The notes under the pieces: model-generated
Databases searched by the model: none
What the model saw: the letters and a program-made list of their open reading frames with translations, nothing else
What the model was told of the DNA's origin: nothing
In this document: piece after piece, positions 1-59,227 of the stretch
How the letters are laid out: every line of letters starts with the position of its first letter
How positions within the stretch are numbered: position 1 is the stretch's first letter
Assembly (NCBI GenBank): GCA_040285855.1
Contig: JAUFOQ010000018.1
Location: 434,001 to 498,000 of the forward strand
From: Eukaryota sp. GEM-RC1
Taxonomy: Eukaryota
Direction of reading: 5' to 3'
Length of the DNA: 64,000 nt
Position numbers and translations under genes: made by a program

Positions 1-2471
1 GAGAGAAAATTTGTTCTAATAGAATTAAATTTCTTGGCAAATGTTTCAGTAAGGGAATAGTCTAATCAACGTAAAAAATGATTAATTTTCCCGGAAAAAC
101 AGACCTGAAGCATAGCAAAGGAAACATGTTTGCTCACATCTAAAGATAATATTTGATTTAGTTTTTCTTCAATTGTAGTTAATGAACTCTCCAATTCTGA
201 ATGAATTTTCTCATAATTTCCCAAAAACGTGCCAAGGAAACGAAAACATTGAGTAGAATAATCGATGATAGGAATATTACAAAAACCAAGATTAGAAACA
301 TTCGAAGACTTAACAACAAGAAAACACTTATCAAAATTGATTGTTAAACCAATACTCAAAGAAAGTTCGATGAAACGTGAAAAACACTTTTTGAGAACGT
401 CAACTGGAGCGATCAGCGAAGAATCATCAGCATAAGCACAAATTTTAACAGTTGGAAATTCTAATTGTAAGATTTTAAATAATTTTTGCAGAGCGAGACA
501 AAACAAAAAAGGACCCAAAGGATCACCTTGCTTAACCCCTCTAGTTGATTTAATATCAAACTTGTCATAAATTAAATTCGACGCTTTACCATAAAAAAAT
601 ATTAAAATAGGGAATCAACTGAGGAAAAAATTTAGAAAGTTCGTCAGATATAGTTGATCTTAAAACACAATTAAATGCATTTTTAAAATCAATGTTCAAA
701 ATGGCATTTTCCTCATTTGAATGAAAAAGAAAATCAGAGGTTAAAGCAGCACACGTAGTACCATCAGGAACTCCAACTGCAAATTGAAACGGTCTAAAGA
801 ATTCAACAGAGGAATCTCTGACTCTCCTAAAGCACAAAGTTGAAAAAATACGAGAAATTGTTTCACCCACTGCAATTGGTCTCACACCTCCATTTGGTTT
901 GCTTAAAGCCACTAATCTAGAAGAGCAAAGAGCATGAGGTAATTTCTTTGTGCCTAATAAAACTTCATTAAAGAAAACAGCAAGATCTTCACAAATTTCA
1001 GGAACAGCATCAACGGCAATTTTAAAATGATCAAAACTCATTCCAGAAGGACCAGCAGCACGACCAGAAGGGGATGACGAAATTAATTGTAAAATTTCAT
1101 CAACTAAAACCGGTTTGTTAGTCCAGTACGACATGGAAAGTTCACCAAAAACCGGATTGCCTGAAAATTCTTCAACAGGGTGTAATTTTTTCAGTTTTTC
1201 AACAGTTTCAACAGAAACTTCAGCTGGAAGTGTGTGATTAAGGGAGGACAAAGCAGAAGAAAACTGACCTCGTAAAACAAGATTTTGAAATCTTTTAGCA
1301 ATAAACTTATCACTAACTTGAGACTTAAGAACAGGTTTAATTTTTCTATTGGACTTCTTAACAATTGACAACATATATCGCCAAAAGGTGCGGGATTCCA
1401 AATTCCACCACGTAAAATTTGTGTCACACTTCTAAGAGCAGTCCCGACATTAACGGCCGCCATTGGAGATATCATGATAGGAATTCTAAATTGTGGACGA
1501 CATACATCAATAGGTGAACAATCAAAACACACAAGAAGTGGACGATTGGATTTATTTTTCCCAGAAACAGATTTAGCACAAAAAAGACAGGTCAATGAAA
1601 TTGATGAATTAATTTTAGGCTCACAAACAGTCTCTTGGAAATCAAGAACAGACTGTTTAGACTCAACAGACAAAACAACTTCGGCAATCTTGGCATCATC
1701 TGAAGCAGACTTCCTAGTAGGGCAATTACGTCGATCATGACCACCCAGTTTGCACACACCACACTTTCTACTAGACTCATGCATCGATTCAGCAACAACT
1801 GGCCGAGAAATACAAGTATTATCTGACGATGTAAGACCAACCAAAGGAATACAAGCAGAAAAATTCGGAGCAATTGCCTCATTCAAAACATTCTGAACTA
1901 ATGGACTTATAGAAGAGGAAGATTTAACAGAAAAAATAGCTGTACTTCCATCAAAAACAGAAGATACAACCTTAGAAGGAGGAGAAATAGAACGAAGAGA
2001 AGAAGATTGAATGGATGAAGAAAAAGTAGCTGTACTTCCATCAAAAACAGAAGTTACAACCTTAGAAGGAGGAGAAGTAGAACGAAGAGAAGAAGATTGA
2101 TTGGATGAAGAAAAAGAAGAAAAAGACGGGTTTCGAGCTAAGTACTTAAGAGAAGAGACAGAACAACTTCCATCAAAGACAGAAGAAACAGCTTTAAGAG
2201 GAGAAGAAGCAGAACGAACTGAAGAAGGTTGGTTGGAGGCAAAGACAGAAGAATGAGATGACTTACGAACTAAACGATTTGAAAGCCGAGCATACCCCCG
2301 AACAGGAGCAGCAAGAGGAGGAGTAGTAATAGAGGAAGAAGAAGTACCTGCCAGTTTTTTAGCCAGATGATATGGTAATTTGGACTTACCCTTCACAACA
2401 CCAGAGTCAGAAGACTCACGGTTAGAAAGAGAAAGACTGCCAGACAATATGGCAGAATTTCTTAAAGACAT
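1..2471 (-). mobile_element. CRE-like RLE-clade non-LTR retrotransposon, 5' part (Ser-rich N-terminus, CCHC knuckle, reverse transcriptase); runs off window start
   Basis: ATG at 2471 (MSLRNSAIL), CCHC knuckle CGVCKLGGHDRRNC, RT motifs AAGPSG, VRPIAVGE, QFAVG, IDFKNAFN, GVKQGDPLGPFLFCLAL, AYADD, FLG. The three ORF pieces join at A/T homopolymers (~1385, ~595); one in-frame TGA at 66-68. Confidence 0.9.
1939..2235. repeat. Three imperfect coding repeats in the retrotransposon N-terminus
   Basis: QSSSLRS(T/I)SPPSKVV(T/S)SVFDGS repeated twice near-identically (~1939-2010, ~2029-2100) plus a degenerate third copy. Confidence 0.8.
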
Positions 2472-5839: not shown

Positions 5840-8197
5840 TAGACCTGTGCAATCCACTCAGATAGTCGACTAAGTCGACTCGTAAACGCAGTCGAGTCGA
5901 GTCGACTCAAGTCATTTATTACATCACATCAAATCACACTACATGTGGTTTATAGATATTATCTTCCATTAAATAGTTCAATAAAGAATACTGAAACAAC
6001 ACCAATTGTCTTTCGTCTTTGTGGTTAAATAATTGAGTGAAGTTACTACATGTAGTACTCAATTTTATTTACACCAATTTCTTGTTTCTCCTCTTTGAAT
6101 GTCTTTACCTCCAACAAAGACCTGCAGAATTCTAACTGTACCAGGTGAAGAGATCACCATATCTTCTGATACTGAACCAGCACCGATAGTGCTATCTCCT
6201 CGTCAAACTTTCCAGGGGCATCGTCACTTCGTTTTACAAGAAGGATGGAAAGTGTGTAAGCTCTGCTCTAACGGCACTTCTTTTGCCTTAAAAACTTCAA
6301 CGACTGTCTTACGGTCTCATCTTAACGAGAAGCATCCCAACTGGGAGGGCCACTCACAACCAACTATTAAAACTGTAGCCCCAAAGATTAGGAGGAGTAC
6401 TACTAAATACATCAACCTTATGTTGGCGAAACTTGTACTGGAAAAATCTTTGTCTTTCAGTTTTGTGAACTCAAAAGCTCTAAAAGAGCTCCTGAACTTG
6501 CTAGCTCCTGGTTATAAGGTTCCCTCTAGATGGACACTTCAACGATCTCTCCATTCTGCCTTTTTGAGAAACAAAGCTGCGATTGCTAAGAAAGTTTCGA
6601 AAATTGCTGCACAATCCTTAACCACAGACCTGTGGACATCAAGATCTCAGGTACCATTTTTAGGTGTGACTGCACACTTTGTAGAGAGTGGAGAACTCAA
6701 AAGCATGGTCCTAGATGTCAAGATGCTTCCGTTTCCACACAATGACGAAGCTATTGCAATCGCAATTAAAGAAATATTGACGGAGTTTGACATTAAGAAG
6801 GTTTTGTGTGTAACCACTGATAACGCAAGAAACATGGTTAACGCGATGGAGTCACTACTTCCTTCCACATCCTCTTATCATGGGAGATGTATGGGACATG
6901 TTCTCAACATTTGTGTCAAAGCTGGTTTGGATTGCTTACAACCCTTTATTGCCAAAATACGAGAGTTTGTTGTTGACCTTCACCGAAGTCCCAAAGTTAG
7001 ACAAGAGTTCAGTGAGTTTTGTAAACGATTAGACTTTCACATTCCTAGTGAGATTGATTTGCAAAGTGGGGATGATGGTGATAACACAGAAGGAGACAAT
7101 AGCTCACAAGAAGATGGCGACAGAAGCTCCCAAGAACTTGCTGAAGATGATAAGCTCCCTGTGATTCCAAAAGGACTGATTCCATTAGATGTCGCTATTC
7201 GTTGGAACAGTTTGTACAGAATGATAAAGAGTTATCACAATTTTGGTTCTGTCATACCTTTGTTCCTTCGAAGTGTTGATAAGAACTTTTTAGCTCTTTC
7301 TCCAGATGAGGAATCTACTCTTAATCAATGCTTAGAACTGCTTAAACCGTTCTTCGCTGTCACTGAAGCTATTTCGGGAGAATCGTACCCCACCATGAGT
7401 TTTCTTTTAGCTGCTTTAACTCATTGTCTCGCTTACCTTTTGCCGAGAGACACAGATGAAACGTTCTTGTCTGAGGCCAAGCAACAAATGAAAGCCAAGT
7501 TTGATACTTATATTCCCTTCATGTACACATTTCCTGCTTTTGTGTGTGCAATCTTAGATCCTCGGTTCAAAAACCAGGTGGTTCCCCAATTAACAAACAA
7601 TTCTGGTTATTTTGAGCAATTAAAGGAGTTAATTAAGAGCCGCAAAACCGAAAAGGGTGTTCAAGAAGTCAGCGAACCAAGACTAGTACCATTTATTCCA
7701 ATTCCAATTCCATGCGGCGACGAACTTTCTCAATACTTAAGTGATCCACTGGCCGTCATAAGTACCAATCCGGTTCTTTGGTGGCATCAAAGTAAAGGCC
7801 GATATCCAATTCTCAGTGATTTGGCTGAAGAATTTTTGTCAATTCAGGCGACCTCTTCTCAAAAACAGGTGATATAGTTTCAAGGAAGCGTTGTTCTTTG
7901 AGTGACGAAAATATTAGAGCATCTGCATGTTTGCAGTCATGGAGCATCTTTCTTGGTGATGAATTTGTGTTATAGCTACTTCAGTACTTATAGACTTTAT
8001 TTGTGATGATATACTAATAGCTTTTCTTGTTTCTTGTTATAAAAATGTCCTGGATTTTGCCCGTTTTATAGACAAATGAATTTCAATGAGTGGTCTATAG
8101 TTACTATCGTTACTCAATAGTCGACTCGAGTCGACTCAAAGCCGAGTCGAGTCGACTCAGATAAATAATTAGTCGAGTCGAGTCGTGCACAGGTCTA
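5840..8197 (+). mobile_element. hAT DNA transposon (2358 bp)
   Basis: Perfect 12-bp TIR TAGACCTGTGCA/TGCACAGGTCTA. 8-bp TSD AATTATAT (5832-5839, 8198-8205). Subterminal GTCGA(C/G) repeats. Empty site GGCAATTATATTGGT in the other array units. Confidence 0.97.
6099..7975 (+). pseudogene. hAT transposase lacking the catalytic Glu segment
   Basis: BED finger CKLC..H..KH, TTDLWTS, TTDNARNM, RCMGH, RWNS, LDPRFK, WW..YP.LS.LA. After IQATS the (S)ER motif is missing and the C-terminus FSKTGDIVSRKRCSLSDENIRASACLQSW continues in another frame to TAG at 7975. Confidence 0.9.
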
Positions 8198-37063: not shown

Positions 37064-37156
37064 CACAATTAATCTCAGTGAGACTAATTTATGAATAGAC
37101 CACTTTGAAACTAGGTTATGATTTAGTCTCACTGAGACTAATTGTTGTGACTAATG
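37064..37156. mobile_element. Remnant of a Tc1/mariner-type MITE
   Basis: Palindromic TTAGTCTCACTGAGACTAA motifs; end ACTAATTGTTGTGACTAATG followed by TA. Related to 37865-38351 and to a 40-bp relic at 55053-55092. Confidence 0.55.
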
Positions 37157-37379
37157 TACATGTACTTGTCGAAAAAGAAGATTGACTTATCATTGACTTG
37201 GGTAACGCCAAATTGATAAGATTGAGACTTACACATAGATCCAAAACCACAACAACTAGAACTCAATATCATTAAAGCAACATTAATTGCCATTAAAACC
37301 CACCTCAGCTTTTACTTCATAAACGAGACTGAGAGCTAATAGAATTGATAGGCGAAAGGGAAAAGTACTGGTAAAAAGT

Positions 37380-37860
37380 TGATATTATCAAAAATCTTGA
37401 TGATTCAACAAGAGTTCATGCTTCATGGGTAAGTCAGTTCTAAATTTTTGTGGTGGGGAGTATTTCAGCAAGACAAAAGAAAAGGGACCAAGAGGATCAC
37501 TTTGTTTAACACCTGTTAGTGAACAAAAATTAGCCTATTTGTAGCACAAATCAGAGGAACTACCACAACAATTATCGAAAAACAAGATTCCAATTGTGGA
37601 AAATGGTCTTGGTAATTGAGGGAAAATAATAACTCGGTTTGAATGCGTTTTTAAAGTCACGATTAAAAACAATTTTCATCTTCGCGTTCAGATGTCAAAC
37701 CTGCAACTGTCAATTGTTTTAATTCCATATTGAAAAGAGAAAAAAATCACTGTTAAGAATCAAATCGTGTGTGAAACATTCTGTACCAAGACCCAGTATT
37801 CATTTATTTAGTGTTTCAAATGCCCACAATTTTGTAGGAATACTATTGTCATAACGTATT
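37380..37860 (-). pseudogene. Degenerate non-LTR RT relic
   Basis: Reverse strand reads GVKQSDPLGPFSF near 37480-37515 and DFKNAF near 37640-37660. Boundaries are approximate. Confidence 0.6.
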
Positions 37861-37864
37861 GCTA

Positions 37865-38351
37865 CACTCTTCACAACAATTAGTCTGAATCAGACTAATT
37901 ATGAATGTCAATTGAAACAGTACCAAACAATAATTACTCTGATTCAGACTAAATAATGGCTGGGAAAATTAGTCTGAATCAATATCCCAAACACAAACAC
38001 TATCTTGATCATAAAATCATGTTATGTCTTCATAAATGTTATGTTGTACATCAAAATCGTTGTTGGTACCTTAAATTGAGGTGTAAGACTGAAGAAATTC
38101 AGAAGAACTGGTCGGTCATCGAATTACCTCTTCAAAATTGATTAGTGACCGAATTGTCTTTCAAGCAAGTGCCAATAATGGGTGACACAGGCTGTATATG
38201 GCAATTCAACCAAAGTGTCTAGGAAGATAAGTTTAAAAAGGGATATGTAACACAATTTTACTCAAAAATATTGGACACTCCTAAAGCGGTCAAACAATAA
38301 TAAGTCTGATTCAGACTAATAAGTGATTCAGACTAATTGTTGTGAAGAGTG
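37865..38351. mobile_element. Tc1/mariner-type MITE (487 bp)
   Basis: Perfect 28-bp TIR CACTCTTCACAACAATTAGTCTGAATCA, flanked by TA on both sides. Internal AGTCTGA(A/T)TCAGACT palindromes. Confidence 0.92.
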
Positions 38352-38823: not shown

Positions 38824-40207
38824 ATGAATCCATCATCTGATTTCAAACGGTTGGAGGAGCAGTCCTCAATAAGGATCCTGGGAATATTTGCTGCCCTGCT
38901 ATCTCACAGCTCCATCTTCAACTCTCTCAATGGGATTTTGATTCCTGTGTTTATCGATCTTTATTTTGATGGTAACTCACGAGCTTTAGGATTCATCACT
39001 GGTATCGGCTCCATCGTCCAAATGAGTGGGGTTGTGTCATCCCTCTTGTCTGATAGAGTTGAATTCCGTACTGGTATGTTTTATTCATCCGCTAACAATA
39101 GGAAGAAGACGCCCATTCATCTTTGCTGCTACTGTTCTGTCTTGCCTGGGAATATTTTCTCTCCTTATCGTTGAATTTCTGGACTCCGCATCTCTTCTAA
39201 CCAACCGTATCTTCATTCTTGCTGGATACTACATTGCTATGTGTGGACTTTCCATTACCTCACCCATTACGACTGCGTTTCTGGTGGATCTCATTCCCGA
39301 GTCACAAAGAGGTATGGGTAGTGGAGTGGTCAGTCTTTACGCAGTCCTTGGATCTGCGGCCGGGTTTGCCTTATTTGTGCTTGATCTTACCATGACCAAA
39401 GTATTCATTATCTACATTGTGCTGACCATCGCTGCCAATACCAGTACTCTACTTAATGCCCAGGAGACTCAATACAAACGAACTGCCGATCAGGAGCTCA
39501 GCATTACTTCCATTCTCACCCATCTCAAGTTTGATCCCAAGAAACATTTCAATTTTATACGAATCTGCTTAGTTCGCTTAATTTTCTACATCGCTTTAGG
39601 AGTCCAAAGCTATATCCAGTTCTTTCTACGTGACATGATTGGAGTGACCGATGCTCCAACATCCATGGCTGTTCTTGCTCTTTGTATGTTGGGTTTTGGA
39701 ATTTTCATTTCAATTCCGGCTGGAAAACTTTGTGATAAGCATTCCAAACAGCTTTTCATGGGTATCGGAATCTCCAGCCTTGGTATTGCCGTCATTTTAA
39801 TGATGTTTGCTTCTCAATTTTGGCATATGATAATTGTTGTATGTTTCTTCAGTACTGGTCAAATTGTCTATGGCACTGCCGAAAGTGCTTTGGCATGCAG
39901 TATTTTGCCATCTCAACGACAGTCTGGTTCCTATCTTTCTATTCTCTCCTTGCTTAATATGGTTGGTTTAAGTTTGGGGTCCGTAGTGCTAGGTAATGTG
40001 CTAAGTTTCTTCCCTGATGGTGTTCCTATTAAGGATCTTCCCCAACAGTACACTCGTCAAGGATATGTTTTTACTTGGGGAGTTGCTGTATTGTTTTTGT
40101 TGTTGTCAATTGTTGTCTTATCTGGTATGAAGATTGTATCTAAACCAAAGGTTTTAGATGTTAATATTTTAGAGTCTGAAGATGATGAGATTCCTCTCGT
40201 TTTATAG
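38824..40207 (+). CDS. MFS transporter, sucrose/H+ symporter (SUC/SLC45/GPH)-like; 2 exons (38824-39073, 39102-40207)
   Basis: Many hydrophobic TM segments. Splicing gives LSDRVEFRTGRRRPF, the family loop motif. Also DLIPESQRG and GKLCDK. Confidence 0.85.
39074..39101 (+). other. 28-nt spliceosomal intron
   Basis: GTATGTTTTATTCATCCGCTAACAATAG: GTATGT donor, GCTAAC branch site, AG acceptor. Removal restores the frame and the GRRRPF motif. Confidence 0.9.
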
Positions 40208-40771: not shown

Positions 40772-41702
40772 CTATTTTTTAAAAATTGACAATGATCCGT
40801 TATGTTCAATACTTACAAGACCATTCCTGTTCCTTGTGTGAGTAACTTTCTCAATAGCAGTTATGTGTTGACAAAGTTCTTGCAAATGTTTGCCATCTGA
40901 AACATTAAACAATTGAATAGTTCCACAAAGAGTCCCAATCGAAACGTGATTCGAATCAGCTGTAAAAGAAGATCCTAATACCAGAGCTCCAGATCGTATT
41001 TCAGGAGGAACCAGCCCTTGTGGAGGTACAGAGGGAAAAACGTGTTGAACATTGCCATTGAATGAGTCTACTAGCAAATGGTCAGATAGCTGGGTAGTTA
41101 GAAGAAGATATTTCCCATCTGGGGAAAATGACACGTCTTTAAGAGGACATCCTCGTGGATCAAGATTGTTGAAGTTTGAAAAAGGAACTGCTGGACTTCG
41201 TGAGTCAAAGAGGGATAAGTTCTTGCCAACAATAGAAGCGAAGACAAATCCTTGGAGATCATGTACAATTACAGGACTTGGACCAGGAGCCTTACCTGTG
41301 AAGCAAGGATCAGGGGTTTTGGGGTCGAACATTAGGTAGGTGGAATCTTGATAAGATGTGATGAATGTTTCGACAATAGGGTGTATTGACAAGCTAGTGG
41401 TGGGACTAGGAGTAGAGGGTTTATACGACCTTATAACGGTGTTGTCATAAGTTGATAACAACTTAATGTCGTTAGTTTTCGACGTAGTGTAGAGAACGCC
41501 TTCTTTATGTCGAGTGAAAGCAGCATTGCTAACACCAGTTGTATGGATAAACGAGTATTGTTGCAGGTCACCAGAAAGTAGACTGTATAAGGATACATTT
41601 CCAGAGGCAGTGACTGTTAGAAACAAATCTCCTGTTTCATGAACTGATAGAGAACGAATAAAACGATTTGAGGGAAGGATGAAAGGCAGTAACTCTGAAC
41701 AT
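40772..41702 (-). CDS. WDR82: WD40 protein, WDR82/Swd2-like (COMPASS/termination factor); one homopolymer frameshift
   Basis: IKLLSTYDNTVIRSY, SFSPDGKYLLLTT, LVDSFNG, SFTADSNHVSIG match WDR82. Start MFRVTAFH at 41702 joins IRSLSVHETGDLFLTV if one base of the A4 run at 41660-41663 is removed. Confidence 0.8.
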
Positions 41703-41734
41703 TTGAAACAATGAAACTACTACTGTGGATTTTC

Positions 41735-41857
41735 CAAGAAATGCATACTTTACACTTTCAAAGAAAGCTTCTTCATATACATCCCTTTTCTGCCGAAGCA
41801 CCACATTACGGCCTCCATTCAAGGTAACTTGAACTTCATCGGCCAATACATAGATAA
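41735..41857 (-). ncRNA. Candidate Fanzor omegaRNA scaffold
   Basis: Immediately 3' of the Fanzor stop codon. Hairpins: GGCC..TTCAAG-TTAC-CTTGAA..GGCC, TGC-TTCG-GCA (UUCG tetraloop), CTTTC-TTT-GAAAG. Boundaries are inferred. Confidence 0.6.
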
Positions 41858-43657
41858 TTAAGTACGTTGGAAAGCTTCAGGCCTAGTTCCAAATAAGTAA
41901 CCCTCTATAGCGATCTCAAGTTGATTTCTGGAGGCAGAAATATCTCTTGACCAAACCTGAGCACATGTTGGACATCGAAATATGGCGTGATTCACTCTTC
42001 TTACTCCATCAACTTCATGATATATCAACTGATGCCTCACTTTACAGCAGTTAGTTTTTGCGGAAGTGAAGTATTCATCGCCCATAATAACGGGAAAGAA
42101 TCTTTTGAGATATTCAAGGAATCCCTTTCTTGGAGACTTCACTTGCTGCCTAGATGGGCTAGCACCTCCTGTCCCAAACCAAACTCTGATTTGGCTTCCT
42201 TGTGCCATATTTTTCAAATTTTGAGCAAATAAATCAAATCGTTTCTGTTTTCTTATGAAGAAATCGAACTTGTTTCTCCGTAGGTTGGGTCTGTTCCCAT
42301 TTAATAAACACCGTTCTAGACTGTTCTTACTCATATTTTGATCAACAATAGTTTTCGATATCTCGAGCAGATACAGGTACATGTTCTGAACGGAATAGGT
42401 GTTCGACGTAGAGTTGCTCAAAGCACCAAACATAACAGTATTGATAGCCTTGGCTTTTGGTGCCAGTGTAATACCAGAGTCCAATAAATAGTCAGTGTTG
42501 GTTCCAATAGACCAACCACATAGGTTACTGTGGTTGGGATCAATTGCACACCATAACCAATCTTCATCAGGAGGAGGTTCGAAATCAGCTGTTCTCGCAC
42601 GTCGTCGTAACGGAGCCACTTTCTTCTGTAGGTTACACTTTCTCTTTCGAGACTTAACCTTGAAGTCTTCGGAGCCACTTGCCCTCCTTGACTCAAACTG
42701 CTCCTTGGTAGTACGGTTCCTTGTTTTTTTCGGCTTTGTGGAAAAATTATCCTCAAACTTACACCATCAGAGGCCAGGGTGTAAGTCTGGAAACGGGGGC
42801 GTTTCCTAAACGTTTTCAGTGGGTTACTTTTGAGAGTCCTTGAGAAGTTGAACTCTCTGAAGTGTTTCTCCACTTCCTGAGAGAATGATACAAACACTGG
42901 AGCATAGCTGGCCATTGGAACTAGAGCATGGCGGCGCATACAATCTGGCGCAGCATCCTCGAGAGCAGACAACAGGTTCAATCCAGCTGCGAATAGAAAT
43001 GAGGTGTTCGTTTCATTCAGGGCAACAGACCGTTCTGTCAATAGATTATTGAACAGGACAACATCCCCGACTAAGTGATTAAAGGTGGCCAGAGTTTGTT
43101 GGTGATGAGCATTCCACCATTGCTGCAGTGATGCTCCAGGTTGAGCACCACGTACGACAGCAGAAGCGTATCCCTTAGGGGTCGGGCAGTCGAGGAATAC
43201 AGCAGCGGTCCGGAAGAAGTTCAGCTTCCAACTGACTGGACCATCGGCCATCAGTTGTTGAAAAGCTTCAGACAACTGGCGTGACCTATCACTCAAGAGT
43301 TGTGAGTGACACCAGCGTGTCGGTTTGTGTCGGCCAAGAGGGGGGGAACGGCCAAATGGATACTGGCGGAAGACTCGACGACAGATGCAGTGCAGTGTAC
43401 ACTCCATTGTCGTTCTCAAAGGGGCGGTTTACTTTCGGCTCAGAGTGAGCAACGAACCCAAAGCACTGGTACCAGAAACGCTGGTCAGTCAACCAGCGTG
43501 CTAAGTGGGGGTGCTGGAGCACAAAGACCCGGGCCAGTAAAGTTGAGTGAACAGCAACGTCTCGAAGGTACCGAAATTGCCTGTTCATCACTGCCCGAGC
43601 TGGCGGGTCAAAAAACTTGGCAAGTGAACACGTGACCGTGGAGGTCGTGGTAGTCAT
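41858..43657 (-). CDS. Fanzor1 RNA-guided endonuclease (TnpB-like), ~599 aa after correcting two compensating homopolymer frameshifts
   Basis: N-terminal TVTCSL, SQLL..QL..F, SDGVSL, K/R-rich linker, RuvC-I CAIDP (D codon 42539-42541), VWFGTG, RuvC-II GDEYFTS (E 42074-42076), Cys residues NCC..CPTC, RuvC-III WSRDISASRN (D 41942-41944), C-terminal RPEAFQR. The 5' half is visibly more GC-rich than its flanks. Confidence 0.92.
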
Positions 43658-44193
43658 GTTCAAGAAATTTATGAAATATTGTGGATTTTCTTGTATTTCA
43701 ACTACATGTTACTTTCAGAAAAATATTTTACATCAATGATTAGAATCTTTTGGTAAATAGGTACAGTAGACTAGAGGTTGTTGTTCTCAGAATTGTTTGA
43801 ATGATCCCAATGGTATCGCTACAAGAATGAATAAGATTTACGATGGGTCATCTTAATCATCTTAATTCAAACTTTGACTTAGTGGCAACGTCTTTGTATA
43901 TGGTAGCTGCAGTATACAATCCCTGCTAGTGGAATTTGGGACTGACTGACTTTCTCCCCTTGACTGTGGGATGATTTTGTGGTGTTTCTCTCCTACTTTA
44001 CATTCATGAATCTCTTTCTCAACATCCTGAAATTCCTGACATCACTAACAGTGATAAAACGGACGACGACTCAAGAACACGAATGTTCTCAAAACACTAA
44101 GCAATAGTTTGTTGGTTTATTTATCATAAAAAGCTGTCGTCTGCTGTTAAAATTAAGATTATATTCAAGCAATATCTTCAAAAATAACTGGAA

Positions 44194-44465
44194 TGACTCG
44201 ACAAACACATGATATACATCATAGAGGCTCTGGAAATACTCTAGAGAAACACTGGACTCAAAATCTCGTTTAATTCTCTTGTTTAATTAATTCTGTCAAG
44301 AGATTCCTGTGGAGTCACATCAAGGAATATAATGCTGTTTCTCTTTCTCATAAAATTAGCCATGTTGTTAAACAAGCGGAGATAGGTTTCGTAGCCATGT
44401 TATTCCATGAGTCCTGAGTCTGAGAGCATTTTGGCAAAGACGGAGTCCTTATAGATTGTTCAGTC
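44194..44465 (-). pseudogene. Deoxynucleoside (dA/dG) kinase pseudogene fragment
   Basis: My translation: D*TIYKDSVFAKMLSDSGLME*HGYETYLRLFNNMANFMRKRNSIIFLDVTPQESLDRIN*TKRIKRDFESSVSLEYFQSLYDVY. This matches dNK DRTIYED / LDV.PE.S..RI..R.R..E motifs, with three in-frame stops. Confidence 0.8.
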
Positions 44466-44869
44466 ACTAATGGAACCACTGATGGAGCCGAGGGATGCCG
44501 AACTGAACGCCAGAAGTGGTCATGGCGAATAAAACTCTGTTGAGTCCAGTTTCTCGCTTTCTTTTGCAAAACTATGAAAAGAAGAATCAGAGATTCACGA
44601 AAAGTTCAGACGTGAAAGTATGATAAGAACTTCACCGGATCAGATACGCCTTTATTGAGATGAACAGCAGAGTATGTTCTACGAGAAGGATTGAGATCGT
44701 CAGGTTCTAGATGAATGTTCCGTGTATGATACAGATATAACAGCAAACCCATAAGAGAGAGGAAAAACTGAAAACCAGAACGGGGAAAAGAAATGTTGGG
44801 GAAAAGACAATTGGGAGGTTTATGCATCCGAACTGAAATCCCCAGTAAAGAGATCTTCACATCCTAGAC

Positions 44870-45433
44870 TAGGATTGTAATTTTGAGTCAAGCTGACTCA
44901 CTGAGCTTTGAGTCAGTCAGCTCGAGTCAGGCTCATTTGACTCATGAGTCAAGTCAAGCCTATGTTTCTATCCGTAAGTCAGCTCTACTCAAGTTTACTC
45001 TAATAAATAAAATTGAATACAATTCAAACGTATTCTATTACAATCACGTGTACATCGAATTAGTAGCTGATTTCTGTATAAATTCATTTGTCTTTCCTCA
45101 ATGTTTTCGTCAAACCCTATCATTATTGACGATGACTCCAGTAAAATTCGTTCTCCTGTTTGGAGTTCTCTGCTGCAAACCAAATTGTAACAAAGAAAGG
45201 AGCTAGACTATCTGACGATACTGCAAGGTGCTTACTGTGTTTACGTTCGTGGTACAAAACAGGTGTATTAAATTCAGATCAGTGAAAAACAGTAGGATTT
45301 GTGTTATGTTATGAAGTACAATAGAAAAAAGCATTCAAAATGAGTCAGCTCAAATCAGGTTGACTCATGAGTCAAGTCAAGCTTCAAATTGTAGGCTTGA
45401 CTCGACTTGACTCGGCTCATTTTAACAACCCTA
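44870..45433. mobile_element. Non-autonomous hAT element / MITE (564 bp)
   Basis: 8-bp TSD TCCTAGAC (44862-44869, 45434-45441). Imperfect TIR TAGGATTGT/ACAACCCTA. Subterminal TGAGTCA/TGACTCA repeat clusters. Confidence 0.9.
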
Positions 45434-48871: not shown

Positions 48872-49734
48872 CAGTTATGTATAAAAATTAGCGCACCGTT
48901 CACTACCGTAAGTTACGGTATACTCGGTATCCGTAAAATATGGCAAATGTAAAAAAGTTACGACAAATGTTACCGTAGTGAGAATGTACTATGTAATGAT
49001 TTTCATACCCTATAAATCGAAACATCAAAGCAGTACTGATCATTTTCATCAGATTTATAACAACTTTGCGACTATTTGTTGCCCTAGTACATGTACTTCT
49101 TGTAGATTGGACACATGACAAGAGCTCAAATACTTAGAAGCTGGTACAACATTATGATTTTTAACAATCAATCAAATGTGATAATCCTGTCAAGACAACT
49201 TCAAAAACCGTATTATGTTGATCATCGTCATCGTTTGAAGTGGAGCATTTTAAAACGTCAACTTTTGCTTCTCTACAATTTGAAGCTGGTGGAGATTGTG
49301 GAAGCGAATATACATGCAGGACATTCAGAAGAATTTTAACAATCCGATTTTCATTAGTGAAGGATCTTAATTTTTGTCCTTATTAAATATTTGCGGTTAA
49401 TTTTGAAAAAAAAACGGGGTTTATGCTCAGTCAGTGAAATAAATGCATTTGCAGAAGTTAATAACTAACAGACACTAACTAAAGTATCTGAACTATGATC
49501 CTTCTGCCCATCACCGAACAACTTTTTGTAGTTTCAATTATCCCTTTTGGCAAATCCTTTTATTTCACTGATTGATCATAAACATCGTTTTTTCAACACA
49601 TAATCTTCCGTATTCCGCTTATTCTCACTTCGTTACAAACTTGCGTAAAATACGGCAAGTGTAAAAATACGCAAATAATTTACGGCAAACTTGAAAAGTA
49701 CAGTATTTACGGCTACTATTTTTATACATCACTG
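48872..49734. mobile_element. hAT-like MITE (863 bp) containing a short LINE 3'-end insert (~49406-49523)
   Basis: 17-bp TIR CAGT(T/G)ATGTATAAAAAT with 1 mismatch. Degenerate 8-bp TSD GTTGAGTA/ATTGTGTA. Subterminal TACGG/CCGTA repeats. Confidence 0.8.
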
Positions 49735-49748
49735 ATTGTGTACAAATT

Positions 49749-51540
49749 TTTTTTGAATGAGTTTTTATGGAACAAAAACACTAAAATAAACACAAATACT
49801 AGAACTCAATATCATTAAAGCAACAATCATTGCCATAAAAACTCACATCAGCTTTTTTCTTCATAAAAAACACTGAGAGCTAATAGAGCTTTTGAAATCA
49901 TGATAGGAATTGTTTTAAATATTGTGAAAACAATACGATTCAACCAAAATTTGAAATCAAATTTCTTGTTCATTCTTTTTGACCACTTTCTCAAAATCAG
50001 AGAGAAAACAAAGAGCAACTCTACCAAGTCGACCATAAATTGAAATTGCAAACGGACATAATTTGTACTCAACATGTCTAATATGTTTGAGAGCAGTCAG
50101 TGGTTCATCATATTTGTTTCTCTTGTATTGTTCTGAAGAATTCAGTGGAGAAACTTCATTTTTGCATCCTTGAATGCACTTTTTTTGCAAACATCCACAG
50201 TAATCACATCAACAACGGTTAGTTCATCATTGACTGATGGAACTATGACATCAGCTTTTCTTTTACCAAAAGTCTTATCAGAATCACTATTTTTTGAATT
50301 ATTGATTTCCAATGATCTCAACAGTGGCTCAACGAAAGATTCGAATTTGTAGGACTTACACATGGCATGAATTTGATCTCTGACAGCATCATGAATACAA
50401 GTTCTATAAGTAATGAAACGATTACAACTCAAAAGGTGAGAAAAGGTAACTAATTTGCCACATTTGCATTGAAGATCATTGGGTAAATTAGAGGGCCACA
50501 AGAAACACCGAAGTCTGAATGTTGTAGTCCATTGATGATCATTCAACAACAAACCATCAATCTGTGGAATTTGGTTAATCAAAGCAACTGAAGAACTGTC
50601 CTTCAAATCGATTAAAAAATTTGCGGAAGCTGGATTTTTTTTCTTTGGCCAAGCCAAGTCGAATTTTAAAATCCAGACATTCAAAATGTTTTAAAAGGTG
50701 TTTTTGGAGTTTCTTAAGAGCAAATTTTAACGAGGTGACACATCGTTCTGGTATTTCACAAATATCTGCTGGAAAATAAGTTTGCCAGAGGTCAGGTGAA
50801 ATTAGCGACAATTCTGATCTCAAATTTACCAAGAAAAAACTACTTGTCGAAACAAGAAGATTTTCTTGACTTGGGTACCGTCTACAGAACTCAAAGACAA
50901 AATTCTTACCACCACCAATAAAAGCAGATTTGGTCCACCATTTAGACGAAGTAAAACCAATACCACCAAGATGAGGATCTGAGAAGATGTGATTGTTCAA
51001 AGCAGCAATATCCACTGATAACAAAAATGCAAGAAAGTCAGTACGAATTTTGTTAAAGCTTCTACAGAAGTTATAGGTAAGTACAGGGGCGAGAGAGTGA
51101 AGCAGATGGGTAACTTTTCCTGAATAACAAATTTTTAGCATAAAGAATTTGAGATGTTTTTCCAATTGCAATTCCTTAATTTGATCTAATTCTTTTCGCA
51201 TTGAATCCAAATATACATTCAGATCTTTAACAATGTTGTCATGTGAACCAAGATAGCAACCTAGAAATCTAAAGCTTGAAGATAAGTAGTTCACAGAGGG
51301 AACCTCTAAAGAATTAACAATTAAAGTTACAGGTACCTTGGCAATCAAAAAACATTTTTGCACATTGAATTGAAGTCCAATTGCATCGTACAAATCAGCA
51401 GCCTGATACGCAATAATACGAAGAGTTGACATAGGCGCAATACAAGAAATGTCATCCATATAAGCTACAATTTCTAAGTCTGCATGTTCTTCTTTGAGTT
51501 TTTTCAGGATTGGATGAATAGCCAAACAAAAAAAGAAGGG
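49749..51540 (-). mobile_element. 5'-truncated RLE non-LTR retrotransposon with poly(A) tail
   Basis: AYMDD, RFLG, CxC..HLLSC, IHDAVRD, RKAD, VDVITVD motifs. 14-bp TSD ATTGTGTACAAATT (49735-49748, 51541-51554). T-run on the plus strand at the 3' end. Confidence 0.9.
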
Positions 51541-52165
51541 ATTGTGTACAAATTATGTCCTTTTGCAATTTCAATTTATGGTCGACTTGGTAAAGATGCT
51601 TTTTGTTTTCTCTCTGAATTTGGGAAAGTTGTCAAAAATGAATGAACAAGAAATTTGATTTTCTGTTTTGGTTGAATCGTACTAGTATTGTTTTTACTAC
51701 TGTATATTTAAAACAATTCCGATTATCATTTCAATAGCTCTACTGTATTAGTTCTCAGTATTTTTCATGAAGAAAAAGCTGATGTGAGTTTTAATGGTAA
51801 TGATTGTTGCTCTAATAGTATTGAGTTTTTGCACTTATCTTACAGTTTTTTGTTCCATAAAGAAGATATTTCGAAAAAAAAGTATTGACTTGCAGTCATA
51901 TAGAAAAAAAAACTCCAAGAGAGTATTTGCTATTAATTATTAAGTCAATTTAAACTAACCAGGTTTATACTTTGTGGAAATTGGCTTTGTTGATATGATT
52001 GCTGGAAATTCCGGAATCACATTTGGTAATTTTTGTTGTAGACCCTGCTTGATTTACTTACTGGAAATCAATTCTTATAGTTTTGTATCTCTATCGATAG
52101 CAGTAGATTTCGAACTCTATATAATTAACAAAGGTTAAGCTCAGAAATTAACTGAAACAAATGAA

Positions 52166-57404: not shown

Positions 57405-59022
57405 ACTCGGCCACGCTGTCTCCCGAATTAATTGGTTGTTTTTATGAGAACTTAATCGGAAAACGATAATTTTATGTTATAAATTAACGAAATACAAACA
57501 ACTAGTACTTAAAAGATATTAAATGATCCACATCTACTCTTGAACTATCACGATACAATTTGTCCAGAATACGATTCAAATACTTTGGGAAACTTCTATA
57601 TAAGGAAAAAACAATGCGATTGCGCCAAATAGACTGATTAAAATTTTTCCTATGGTCACGGCACAACTTTGAAAAGGCATCAAAGAATTTTTCAGCAGCA
57701 AATCCAATATTACCAAGAATTGAAATAGCAAAAGGAATGAACTTAAAAGAAGAATACAAATTGGAATTCAGTTTGATCATTGTGTCAGAATATGTATTAT
57801 TTTTTCTTTTTTCAGCTTTGGATAAATGATTTTCAGTATCACTCGAAACTGAATTCAAATATACTTTAGCACTTAATCGGAATATTGTATTTTATTGATA
57901 TATTTTCATTCTGTTTTATCACTACTTGAAATCATTGATGGCTTTAAAACATGTAATACCTGTTGAATACGAATTATTCCCGAATAACGCTCGGCCACGC
58001 TGTCTTCCGAATTAATTGGTTGTTTTTATGAGAACTTAATCGGAATATTGTATTATATTATATTTTAACTTTGTTAGATTTCTACTTGAAATCATTGATG
58101 GCTTTAAAACATGTCAAACATGTTGAATACGAAATATGCCCGAATAACGCTCGGTCACGCTGTCTTCCGAATTAATTGGCTGTTTTTATGAGAACTTAAT
58201 CGGAATATTGTATTATATTATATTTTAATTTTGTTTGATTTCTACTTGAAATCATTGATGGCTTTAAAACATTGTAAAACATGTTGAATACGAATTATTC
58301 CCGAATAACGCTGGGCCACGCTTTCTTCCGAATTTAGTGGTTGTTTGGATGGGAACTTAATCGGAATATTGTATTATATTATATTTTAATTTTGTTTGAT
58401 TTCTACTTGAAATCATTGATGGCTTTAAAACATGTAAAACATGTTGAATACGAAATATGCCCGAATAACGCTCGGCCACGCTGTCTTCCGAATTTAGTGG
58501 TTGTTTGGATGGGAACTTAATCGGAATATTGTATTATATTATATTTTAATTTTGTTTGATTTCTACTTGAAATCATTGATGGCTTTAAAACATGTAAAAC
58601 ATGTTGAATACGAAATATGCCCGAATAACGCTCGGCCACGCTGTCTTCCGAATTAATTGGTTGTTTTTATGAGAACTTAATCGGAATATTGTATTATAGT
58701 ATATTTTAATTTTGTTTGATTTCTACTTGAAATCATTGATGGCTTTAAAACATGTAAAACATGTTGAATACGAAATATGCCCGAATAACGCTCGGCCACG
58801 CTGTCTTCCGAATTAATTGGTTGTTTTTATGAGAACTTAATCGGAATATTGTATTATATTATATTTTAATTTTGTTTGATTTCTACTTGAAATCATTGAT
58901 GGCTTTAAAACATTGTAAAACATGTTGAATACGAATTATTCCCGAATAACGCTCGGCCACGCTGTCTTCCGAATTTAGTGGTTGTTTGGATGGGAACTTA
59001 ATCGGAATATTGTTTTATATTA
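57405..59022 (-). repeat. 160/161-bp tandem array; each unit is upstream flank plus the first 15-16 nt of tRNA-Leu
   Basis: CTCGGCCACGCTGTC (rc GACAGCGTGGCCGAG) or a 1-2 mismatch variant at 57406, 57990, 58150, 58311, 58471, 58631, 58791, 58952. The first unit is interrupted by a LINE and the last is partial. Confidence 0.95.
57462..57870 (-). mobile_element. 5'-truncated RLE non-LTR insertion in the tRNA-upstream repeat
   Basis: RLE C-terminus (AEKRK, FIPFAISILG, WRNRIVF). 12-bp TSD ACTTAATCGGAA (57450-57461, 57871-57882). Empty site present in the other units. Confidence 0.9.
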
Positions 59023-59227
59023 TAATGTAACGAGATTGCAAACTACATACTACAATATGTATGTAGATACAGTAGTTTATTTTTATTTGTAGTTTATTTT
59101 TTGACTAATTATTTTTATTGACAACAACACTACTAGATAGAGCTGTCAAATGGCTAGCCTCAAGCCGTAAGCCGATGGACTTGAGAAAAGTCATATCCAA
59201 ATTTGGCTTGGCTTACTCAAATGACTC

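What the first reader, a model, noticed from the sequence alone, without database searches (positions are those of the whole stretch)
41724..43690. 11-bp direct repeat tightly brackets the Fanzor cassette
Seen: TGTGGATTTTC occurs at 41724-41734 and 43680-43690. On the coding strand (GAAAATCCACA) it lies 21 nt before the WDR82-like ATG and 22 nt before the Fanzor ATG. Inference: either a target-site duplication defining a minimal 1945-bp element (ORF plus omegaRNA, no TIRs), or a shared promoter motif. A 10-14 bp TSD is the size made by the RLE LINEs in this window, so the cassette could have been retroposed and placed behind a host promoter. That would be an unusual route of Fanzor mobility.
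Basis: partly seen in the sequence, partly recalled or inferred. Interest (0 to 1): 0.7.

Follow-up and report, generated by a model that had tools for sequence, protein, structure and literature searches.

The report
Fanzor element flanked by its target
A 1.9-kb stretch encoding the RNA-guided DNA cutter Fanzor1 sits between two identical 11-base sequences that likely are its duplicated landing site; the second copy is predicted to begin its guide RNA, so the duplication may be a scar of the enzyme's own cut rather than of RNA-based copying.

Summary
The repeat is real (41724-41734, 43680-43690), and the spacings are as stated. Its position is what makes it unlikely to be chance. The 126 nt behind the Fanzor stop fold into a predicted omegaRNA (z -4.15), whose long last stem closes at 41736, two bases before the right copy; 0.0006-0.02 such matches are expected. 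The protein is a Fanzor1 (best fold match SpuFz) with five further full-length copies, 97-99% alike, in one labelled assembly. An insertion-site duplication around a 1945-bp element without TIRs is therefore likely (about 0.75). A common promoter motif is not seen in the window. Retroposition is weakly supported: the one clean LINE insertion here has an A8 tail and a 13-15 bp duplication, the Fanzor has no tail, and relatives show no excess of 5'-truncated genes. Fanzor1 elements without TIRs and with 7-19 or 11-12 bp duplications are published (CRe-1/2/3, MCi-2). Best mechanism (0.4): Fanzor cut the empty site and one-sided repair left 11 target bases behind. No genome, reads or flanks of other copies were available, so the decisive test is open.

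The parts
43680..43690 (-). Left copy of the 11-bp repeat (GAAAATCCACA on the coding strand); likely the host target bases left at the 5' junction
43691..43695 (-). Bases directly upstream of the left copy (TACAA on the coding strand); predicted TAM of this Fanzor if the guide starts with the repeat; untested
   Evidence: sequence; inference from the 5'-TAM layout in PMC10432273
43658..43679 (-). 22-nt leader between the repeat and the Fanzor ATG. No TIR. It holds ATTTCTTG, which also ends the right terminus (0.5% of AT-rich 22-mers hold one of the four terminal 8-mers tested; noticed after the fact)
41858..43657 (-). Fanzor1 gene, about 600 codons, in three frames. Breaks lie at a C7 run (43340-43346) and in the T5/A7 runs near 42723-42745. 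Conserved D363, E518, D562 and zinc-finger cysteines (P0141 numbering) are present
41736..41853 (-). Predicted omegaRNA scaffold: stem 41845-41809, small UUCG hairpin 41800-41791, short A-rich linker, long terminal stem 41787-41736
   Evidence: no RNA data
41724..41734 (-). Right copy of the 11-bp repeat; predicted first 11 nt of the guide
41720..41734 (-). Predicted 15-nt guide; its only match longer than 9 nt elsewhere in the window is the 11 nt at the left junction
40772..41702 (-). Host WD40 gene (WDR82/Swd2-like) starting 21 nt behind the right repeat, with one frame break near 41680
   Evidence: best solved relative: protein C824.04, E 4e-16; that it is a Swd2/WDR82 relative is recalled
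49734..51554 (-). Comparator, not part of the element: 5'-truncated LINE with an A8 tail and a 13-15 bp duplication (51554-51540, 49748-49734)

Best explanation
The 11-bp repeat is likely the duplicated landing site of a 1945-bp, TIR-less Fanzor1 element, and was likely left when the element's own RNA-guided cut was repaired by copying the element back in from one side only. Shown: the repeat, the Fanzor1 gene, its multi-copy family, no TIR and no A-tail. Predicted: the omegaRNA scaffold ends at 41736, so the right repeat is the start of the guide and the empty site (left flank, one repeat, right flank) is the target, with TACAA as the TAM side. Inferred: the first insertion was made without a duplication by an unknown transposase acting in trans. 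Fanzor then cut an empty allele some 15-20 bp behind the TAM. The right broken end copied the element from its 3' end and was joined to the left broken end, which still carried 11 target bases. Joins that kept 13 or more bases would be cut again, which would favour survivors of about this length. The Fanzor ATG then lies where the WD40 gene's ATG lay relative to the upstream host DNA (22 against 21 nt), so host-promoter use is possible but untested.
For: The terminal stem (pair probability 0.96-1.0 at three positions tested, about 0.6 at the outermost pair) closes two bases before the right repeat; whole region z -4.15, 0 of 200 shuffles. This is the layout of the SpuFz1 scaffold: short linker, long last stem, then the guide (PMC10432273 passage). 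Anchored chance 0.0006-0.02. Five further full-length copies at 97-99% identity on four contigs. CRe-1/2/3 show the predicted pattern: intact 3' ends, 7-19 bp duplications behind a fixed tetranucleotide in 5'-truncated copies, none in copies with the full 5' end; MCi-2 has 11-12 bp duplications, no TIR and fuzzy 5' ends (PMC3627910). PMC10288648 speculates that Fanzor cleavage causes such duplications. SpuFz1 cuts 16-21 nt from the TAM, is barely active with a 10-nt guide and plateaus near 13 nt.
Against: One locus only: no second pair of flanks, no empty allele, no reads. The model needs a 5'-truncated copy, yet 1945 bp is the size of complete Fanzor-only elements (1925-2149 bp), all five full-length copies keep the same N-terminus, and relatives show no excess of C-terminal pieces. 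Eleven bases is shorter than the 16-21 nt cut distance of SpuFz1, so end trimming must be assumed. An 11-bp duplication near a gene start also fits a non-TIR Mutator-type transposase (8-11 bp). In some folds CCACA pairs with UGUGG of the scaffold (probability 0-0.97 by window), which would put the repeat inside the scaffold, although random 11-mers do as well in 28-58% of trials. No mobilising transposase was identified.
Confidence: 0.4

Rival explanations
1. An ordinary target-site duplication of fixed length, made at insertion by a DNA transposase acting in trans on a complete, TIR-less non-autonomous element (non-TIR Mutator-like or MCi-2-like).
For: Mutator-like elements make 8-11 bp duplications, some lack TIRs, and parabasalid ones make 9-11 bp (PMC6446971 passages). 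Fanzor1 was captured by MuDR elements, and MCi-2A/2D have 11-12 bp duplications without TIRs. The element has the size of a complete Fanzor-only element.
Against: The MuDR-type Fanzor1 elements in that table have 31-42 bp TIRs and 9-bp duplications. No TIR here. No Mutator, Helitron or Crypton transposase was found among the window ORFs scanned (13 pieces); the genome could not be searched. A variable 11-bp duplication inside the guide would leave every copy with a seed match to its own left end.
Confidence: 0.22
2. The repeat is not an insertion scar: it is chance helped by a short promoter-like bias, or the element's own terminal or target motif (Crypton- or Replitron-like) that belongs to the omegaRNA scaffold, with the true left end further upstream.
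For: 11-bp pairs are common in this AT-rich DNA. Short C(A/C)ACA-like words lie 14-27 nt before several ATGs, and GACTCAACA lies 14 nt before two neighbouring ATGs. CCACA can pair with the scaffold. Sister families have 25-60 extra N-terminal codons. The 1.7 kb upstream holds a broken dNK gene and a MITE, so the inserted block could be larger.
Against: AAATCCACA occurs only twice in 64 kb and before 2 of 13 ATGs, the two in question. The coincidence with the stem end is hard to get by chance. The extra pairing is no better than random.
Confidence: 0.23
3. One reading: a Fanzor transcript was reverse-transcribed and inserted by the RLE LINE machinery, which made the 11-bp duplication.
For: LINE fragments are abundant in the window and one insertion has a 13-15 bp duplication. 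The left end lies just 22 nt before the ATG, as a transcript start might. A sister family has an N-terminal CCHC knuckle 44% identical over 32 residues to a LINE ORF of this window (E 5e-5 in 64 kb).
Against: No A-tail or simple repeat at either junction, unlike the LINE's A8. The right end coincides with the scaffold end, whereas a transcript would run at least through the guide. No excess of 5'-truncated genes: 29 full, 19 N-only, 14 C-only, 7 middle, 2 no match, of 71 listed members (gene models, confounded by frame breaks). A 2026 review finds no evidence for retrotransposons encoding Fanzor (PMC13565253 section 6.2). Such knuckles also occur in Mutator transposases.
Confidence: 0.12

Closest known systems
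CRe-1/2/3 Fanzor1 elements of Chlamydomonas reinhardtii (Bao & Jurka 2013, PMC3627910)
   Same: No ordinary TIRs, intact 3' end, 7-19 bp duplication in many copies.
   Different: They are 4-5 kb, intron-rich, have Helitron2 ends and more than 100 copies. Helitron2 ends and 5' truncation are not shown here.
MCi-2A/2D of Mucor circinelloides (PMC3627910)
   Same: Fanzor1, no TIRs, 11-12 bp duplication.
   Different: 9-10 kb, 1375-aa protein, partial Crypton gene, patterned target ATAATTNNNN(N). The element here is 1.9 kb and carries Fanzor only.
Spu-1 / SpuFz1 of Spizellomyces punctatus (Saito et al. 2023, PMC10432273)
   Same: Best structural match (E 7e-11, TM about 0.55, 12-13% identity); similar element size; predicted scaffold with a long last stem followed by the guide.
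   Different: Spu-1 has 30-33 bp inverted repeats and a TA duplication; neither is seen here.

Membership tests
Fanzor1 | D-x(125-275)-TS-xx-C4 zinc finger-x(5-50)-RD motif, plus the conserved G and E | tested here: met
   D363, G485, E518, T521 S522, C552, C555, R561 D562 nearly invariant in 32 aligned proteins; PF07282 E 1e-5, just under the curated cut-off
Fanzor1 | Fanzor1 fold rather than Fanzor2 or TnpB | tested here: met
   Model of the 97-100% identical P0141 (pLDDT 79.7): top 7 matches are SpuFz, PpFz and GtFz (E 7e-11 to 6e-8); mimivirus Fanzor2 E 4e-3
Fanzor1 | Structured omegaRNA at the right end, followed by a variable guide | tested here: inconclusive
   The fold is significant, but no covariation or RNA data; no credible Rfam match in the region
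Fanzor1 | RNA-guided DNA cleavage with a 5' TAM | not testable with these tools
   Needs biochemistry
LINE-retroposed insertion | Target-site duplication of LINE-like size | tested here: inconclusive
   11 bp against 13-15 bp for the one clean local LINE insertion
LINE-retroposed insertion | 3' poly(A) or simple-repeat tail before the duplication | tested here: not met
   The right junction ends TTTCTTG; the LINE has A8
LINE-retroposed insertion | Frequent 5' truncation across copies | tested here: inconclusive
   No excess of C-terminal pieces among 71 gene models; protein level only
TIR (DDE) Fanzor1 transposon: Mariner, hAT, MuDR, Sola2 | Terminal inverted repeats | tested here: not met
   Best 9 of 15 over all offsets; no inverted match up to 45500
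Non-TIR Mutator-like element | 8-11 bp duplication of fixed length across copies, and a cognate transposase | tested here: inconclusive
   The length fits; other copies and the genome were unavailable
Helitron2 / Replitron-type element | 3' hairpin with asymmetric inverted repeats or short terminal direct repeats, and a cognate HUH protein | tested here: inconclusive
   A 3' stem is present; the 8-bp direct repeat ATTTCTTG lies at the right end and 11 nt inside the left boundary; no HUH gene among the window ORFs scanned

The most novel reading that the evidence does not exclude
This Fanzor1 family is a protein-coding parasite of the host's RLE LINEs: it is copied through RNA, lands behind host promoters with 11-15 bp duplications, and a sister family has even taken up a LINE-type zinc knuckle. 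It would be a Fanzor moving as a retroelement, for which a 2026 review sees no evidence so far.
Probability: 0.1. Interest if true: 0.8.

Novelty: new member of a known kind. Interest (0 to 1): 0.45.

Why it matters
What Fanzors do for their elements in eukaryotes is still open. If duplications that begin exactly at the guide are scars of Fanzor cutting, they would be a genomic record of cut-and-copy homing in eukaryotes. TAM and cut position could then be read from genome sequence alone. These organisms carry several young families (clusters of 8-41 proteins), which makes that testable with one genome download. The family is also a distant Fanzor1 branch (12-13% identity to solved ones), about 600 residues long, with a predictable guide RNA. 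No held paper contains both 'Fanzor' and 'metamonad'.

Tried and rejected
Whole genome: none held. Sequencing runs: none was listed, so no reads were laid. Related loci: 0 of 273 metagenome and 0 of 48 viral candidate stretches were confirmed; a 21-base right-end pattern found 0 metagenome matches. WD40 orthologues for gene order or the true start: only the window's own protein at E 1e-10 or better. A longer (about 65 nt) duplicated promoter: rejected, not significant without the 11-mer. TIRs at these or wider boundaries: none. The neighbouring hAT-like MITE as a left end: rejected, it has its own TIRs and 8-bp duplication. The repeat as part of the RNA scaffold: not better than random, kept as a rival. 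A 29-nt intron in the Fanzor gene as an argument against retroposition: not used, because relatives encode that stretch and it lacks the CTAAC of the one clear host intron. Sequence search of solved structures with P0141: no hit. Rfam: four weak matches, none in the element. Earlier scan notes on this genome or sequence: none. Literature searches for a described Fanzor-cut scar or a retroposed Fanzor gave only the papers cited; most subscription journals are not searched.

Full report
Observation. The 11-mer is present exactly twice, at the stated coordinates, 22 nt before the Fanzor ATG and 21 nt before the ATG of a WD40 gene, enclosing 1945 bp. By itself that is weak: 112 exact pairs of 11 bp or more lie 0.5-4 kb apart in the 27 kb outside the large array, many from repeat families. 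Confined to the two intergenic regions the chance is 0.008-0.043. A looser 65-nt similarity around the two copies disappears when the 11-mer is removed.

The gene. The three frames between 43657 and 41858 match database protein P0141 at 100, about 99 and 97% in their in-frame parts. Its cluster has 8 members. Five are full-length, on four contigs of one assembly labelled Eukaryota sp. GEM-RC1. One (P0147) has the same out-of-frame start as this locus, may be its own gene model and is not counted. One is a C-terminal piece and one does not align. Further families at 35-50% identity, with 10-41 members, occur under two related labels. The catalytic and zinc-finger residues are conserved, and a model (pLDDT 79.7) matches the Fanzor1 structures SpuFz, PpFz and GtFz far better than Fanzor2, TnpB or Cas12f. 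So this is a young, multi-copy Fanzor1 family. Both frame breaks fall in single-base runs. The second is shared by all six models that span it, which bridge it with a 26-29 nt intron although relatives encode those residues. Assemblies of these labelled organisms were made from nanopore reads with short-read correction (bioRxiv 10.1101/2023.05.03.539051, passages), so assembly error is the simplest reading; slippage on the A7 run or a new intron is not excluded.

The right end. The 126 nt from the stop codon to 41735 fold at -36.6 kcal/mol, z -4.15, better than 200 of 200 shuffles; the region upstream of the gene does not fold. A 13-bp stem, 41787-41736, is stable in all seven windows tried. 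In SpuFz1 the scaffold ends with a short linker and a long stem directly followed by the 15-nt guide (PMC10432273, passage). The right repeat starts two bases after this stem. That is independent evidence that the element ends at 41735 and that the repeat is flank, and thus the start of the guide. With this anchor, 0.0006 to 0.023 chance matches are expected for 100 to 4000 nt upstream. Against this, CCACA can pair with UGUGG inside the scaffold, but random 11-mers give the same gain in 28% and 58% of 1000 trials.

Promoter motif. AAATCCACA occurs nowhere else in the window and before none of the other 11 ATGs inspected, several of which are transposon or uncertain starts. Shorter C(A/C)ACA-like words do lie before several ATGs, which raises the chance level somewhat. 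A genome-wide count was not possible.

Retroposition. The window is rich in LINE fragments. One 5'-truncated copy (51539-49749) has an A8 tail and a 13-15 bp duplication, the only such case among 14 rows of the scan. The Fanzor element has no tail at either end, and its end coincides with the scaffold end. Among 71 listed cluster members compared with their references (six clusters, 108 members in all, at most 15 listed each), 29 are full, 19 N-only, 14 C-only, 7 middle and 2 unmatched: no sign of LINE-like 5' truncation, though frame breaks blur this test. One point in favour: a sister family starts with a CCHC knuckle resembling that of a LINE ORF in this window, but such knuckles are not specific.

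What is known. Bao and Jurka (PMC3627910; parts 1-5 of 7 and supplement 1 read) describe TIR-less Fanzor1 elements with 7-19 bp duplications behind TTTT in 5'-truncated copies (CRe-1/2/3) and with 11-12 bp duplications (MCi-2). Craig (PMC10288648; passages and part 1 of section 9) tentatively links such duplications to Fanzor cleavage. Yoon et al. (PMC10711439; passages) report that duplications of TIR elements are built into the scaffold. Jiang et al. (PMC10530073; passages and section 7) list LINEs only as neighbours within 10 kb. [quoted passage not shown] Saito et al. (PMC10432273; passages and discussion) give cut positions and guide-length dependence. PMC6446971 (passages) gives Mutator duplication sizes. 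Figures and the other supplements of these papers were not seen.

Mechanism. I favour a scar of Fanzor's own cut (0.4). The guide targets the empty site; after the cut the right end copies the element from its 3' end and is joined to a left end that keeps the TAM and 11 target bases. This explains why such duplications recur across unrelated Fanzor1 carriers and why this one is just below the guide length that SpuFz1 needs. It is inference. It needs a truncated left end, which I could not show, and the element has the size of complete Fanzor-only elements. A fixed-length duplication by a non-TIR transposase (0.22), a non-scar origin (0.23) and LINE copying (0.12) remain. Two earlier scan notes on fungal Spu-1 copies voice the same scar idea; I saw the first before writing my hypothesis down, and neither was checked here.

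Verdict. A real and probably meaningful boundary repeat around a new, distant Fanzor1 family. The pattern has precedent, the retroposition claim is weak, and the deciding comparison of copies is still to be done.

Noticed in passing
window 44870-45433: Gene-less hAT-like MITE with TIRs (TAGGGTTG / TAGGATTG) and an 8-bp duplication GTCTAGGA, 30 nt upstream of a TOM1-domain gene.
   Followed up: partly
window 44089-44522 (-): Broken deoxynucleoside kinase fragment with in-frame stops (Pfam dNK, E 0.005 and 0.03) between the MITE and the Fanzor element.
   Followed up: partly
window 42723-42762 (-): All six gene models of this family that span the site skip 26-29 nt that relatives encode; a shared -1 break at T5/A7 runs could be assembly error, slippage or a new intron.
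   Followed up: partly
P0143 cluster (7 proteins) and window 1674-1763 (-): A sister Fanzor1 family begins with a CCHC zinc knuckle resembling that of a LINE ORF in this window (44% over 32 residues).
   Followed up: partly
window 39074-39101 (+): A clear 28-nt spliceosomal intron (GTATG...CTAAC...AG) in the MFS gene.
   Followed up: yes
window, 14 nt before the ATGs at 44522 (-) and 45462 (+): GACTCAACA precedes both divergent ATGs at the same distance; a possible promoter word.
   Followed up: no
window 2481-37000: Array of roughly 7.1-kb units, 96-99% identical, built from head-to-head LINE fragments, with a hAT transposase gene at 6099-7877.
   Followed up: no
window 57868-59030: About seven tandem units of 160 bp next to a LINE 3' fragment.
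   Followed up: no
window 37135-38345: A 16-bp direct repeat 1195 bp apart brackets degraded LINE-like coding sequence.
   Followed up: no
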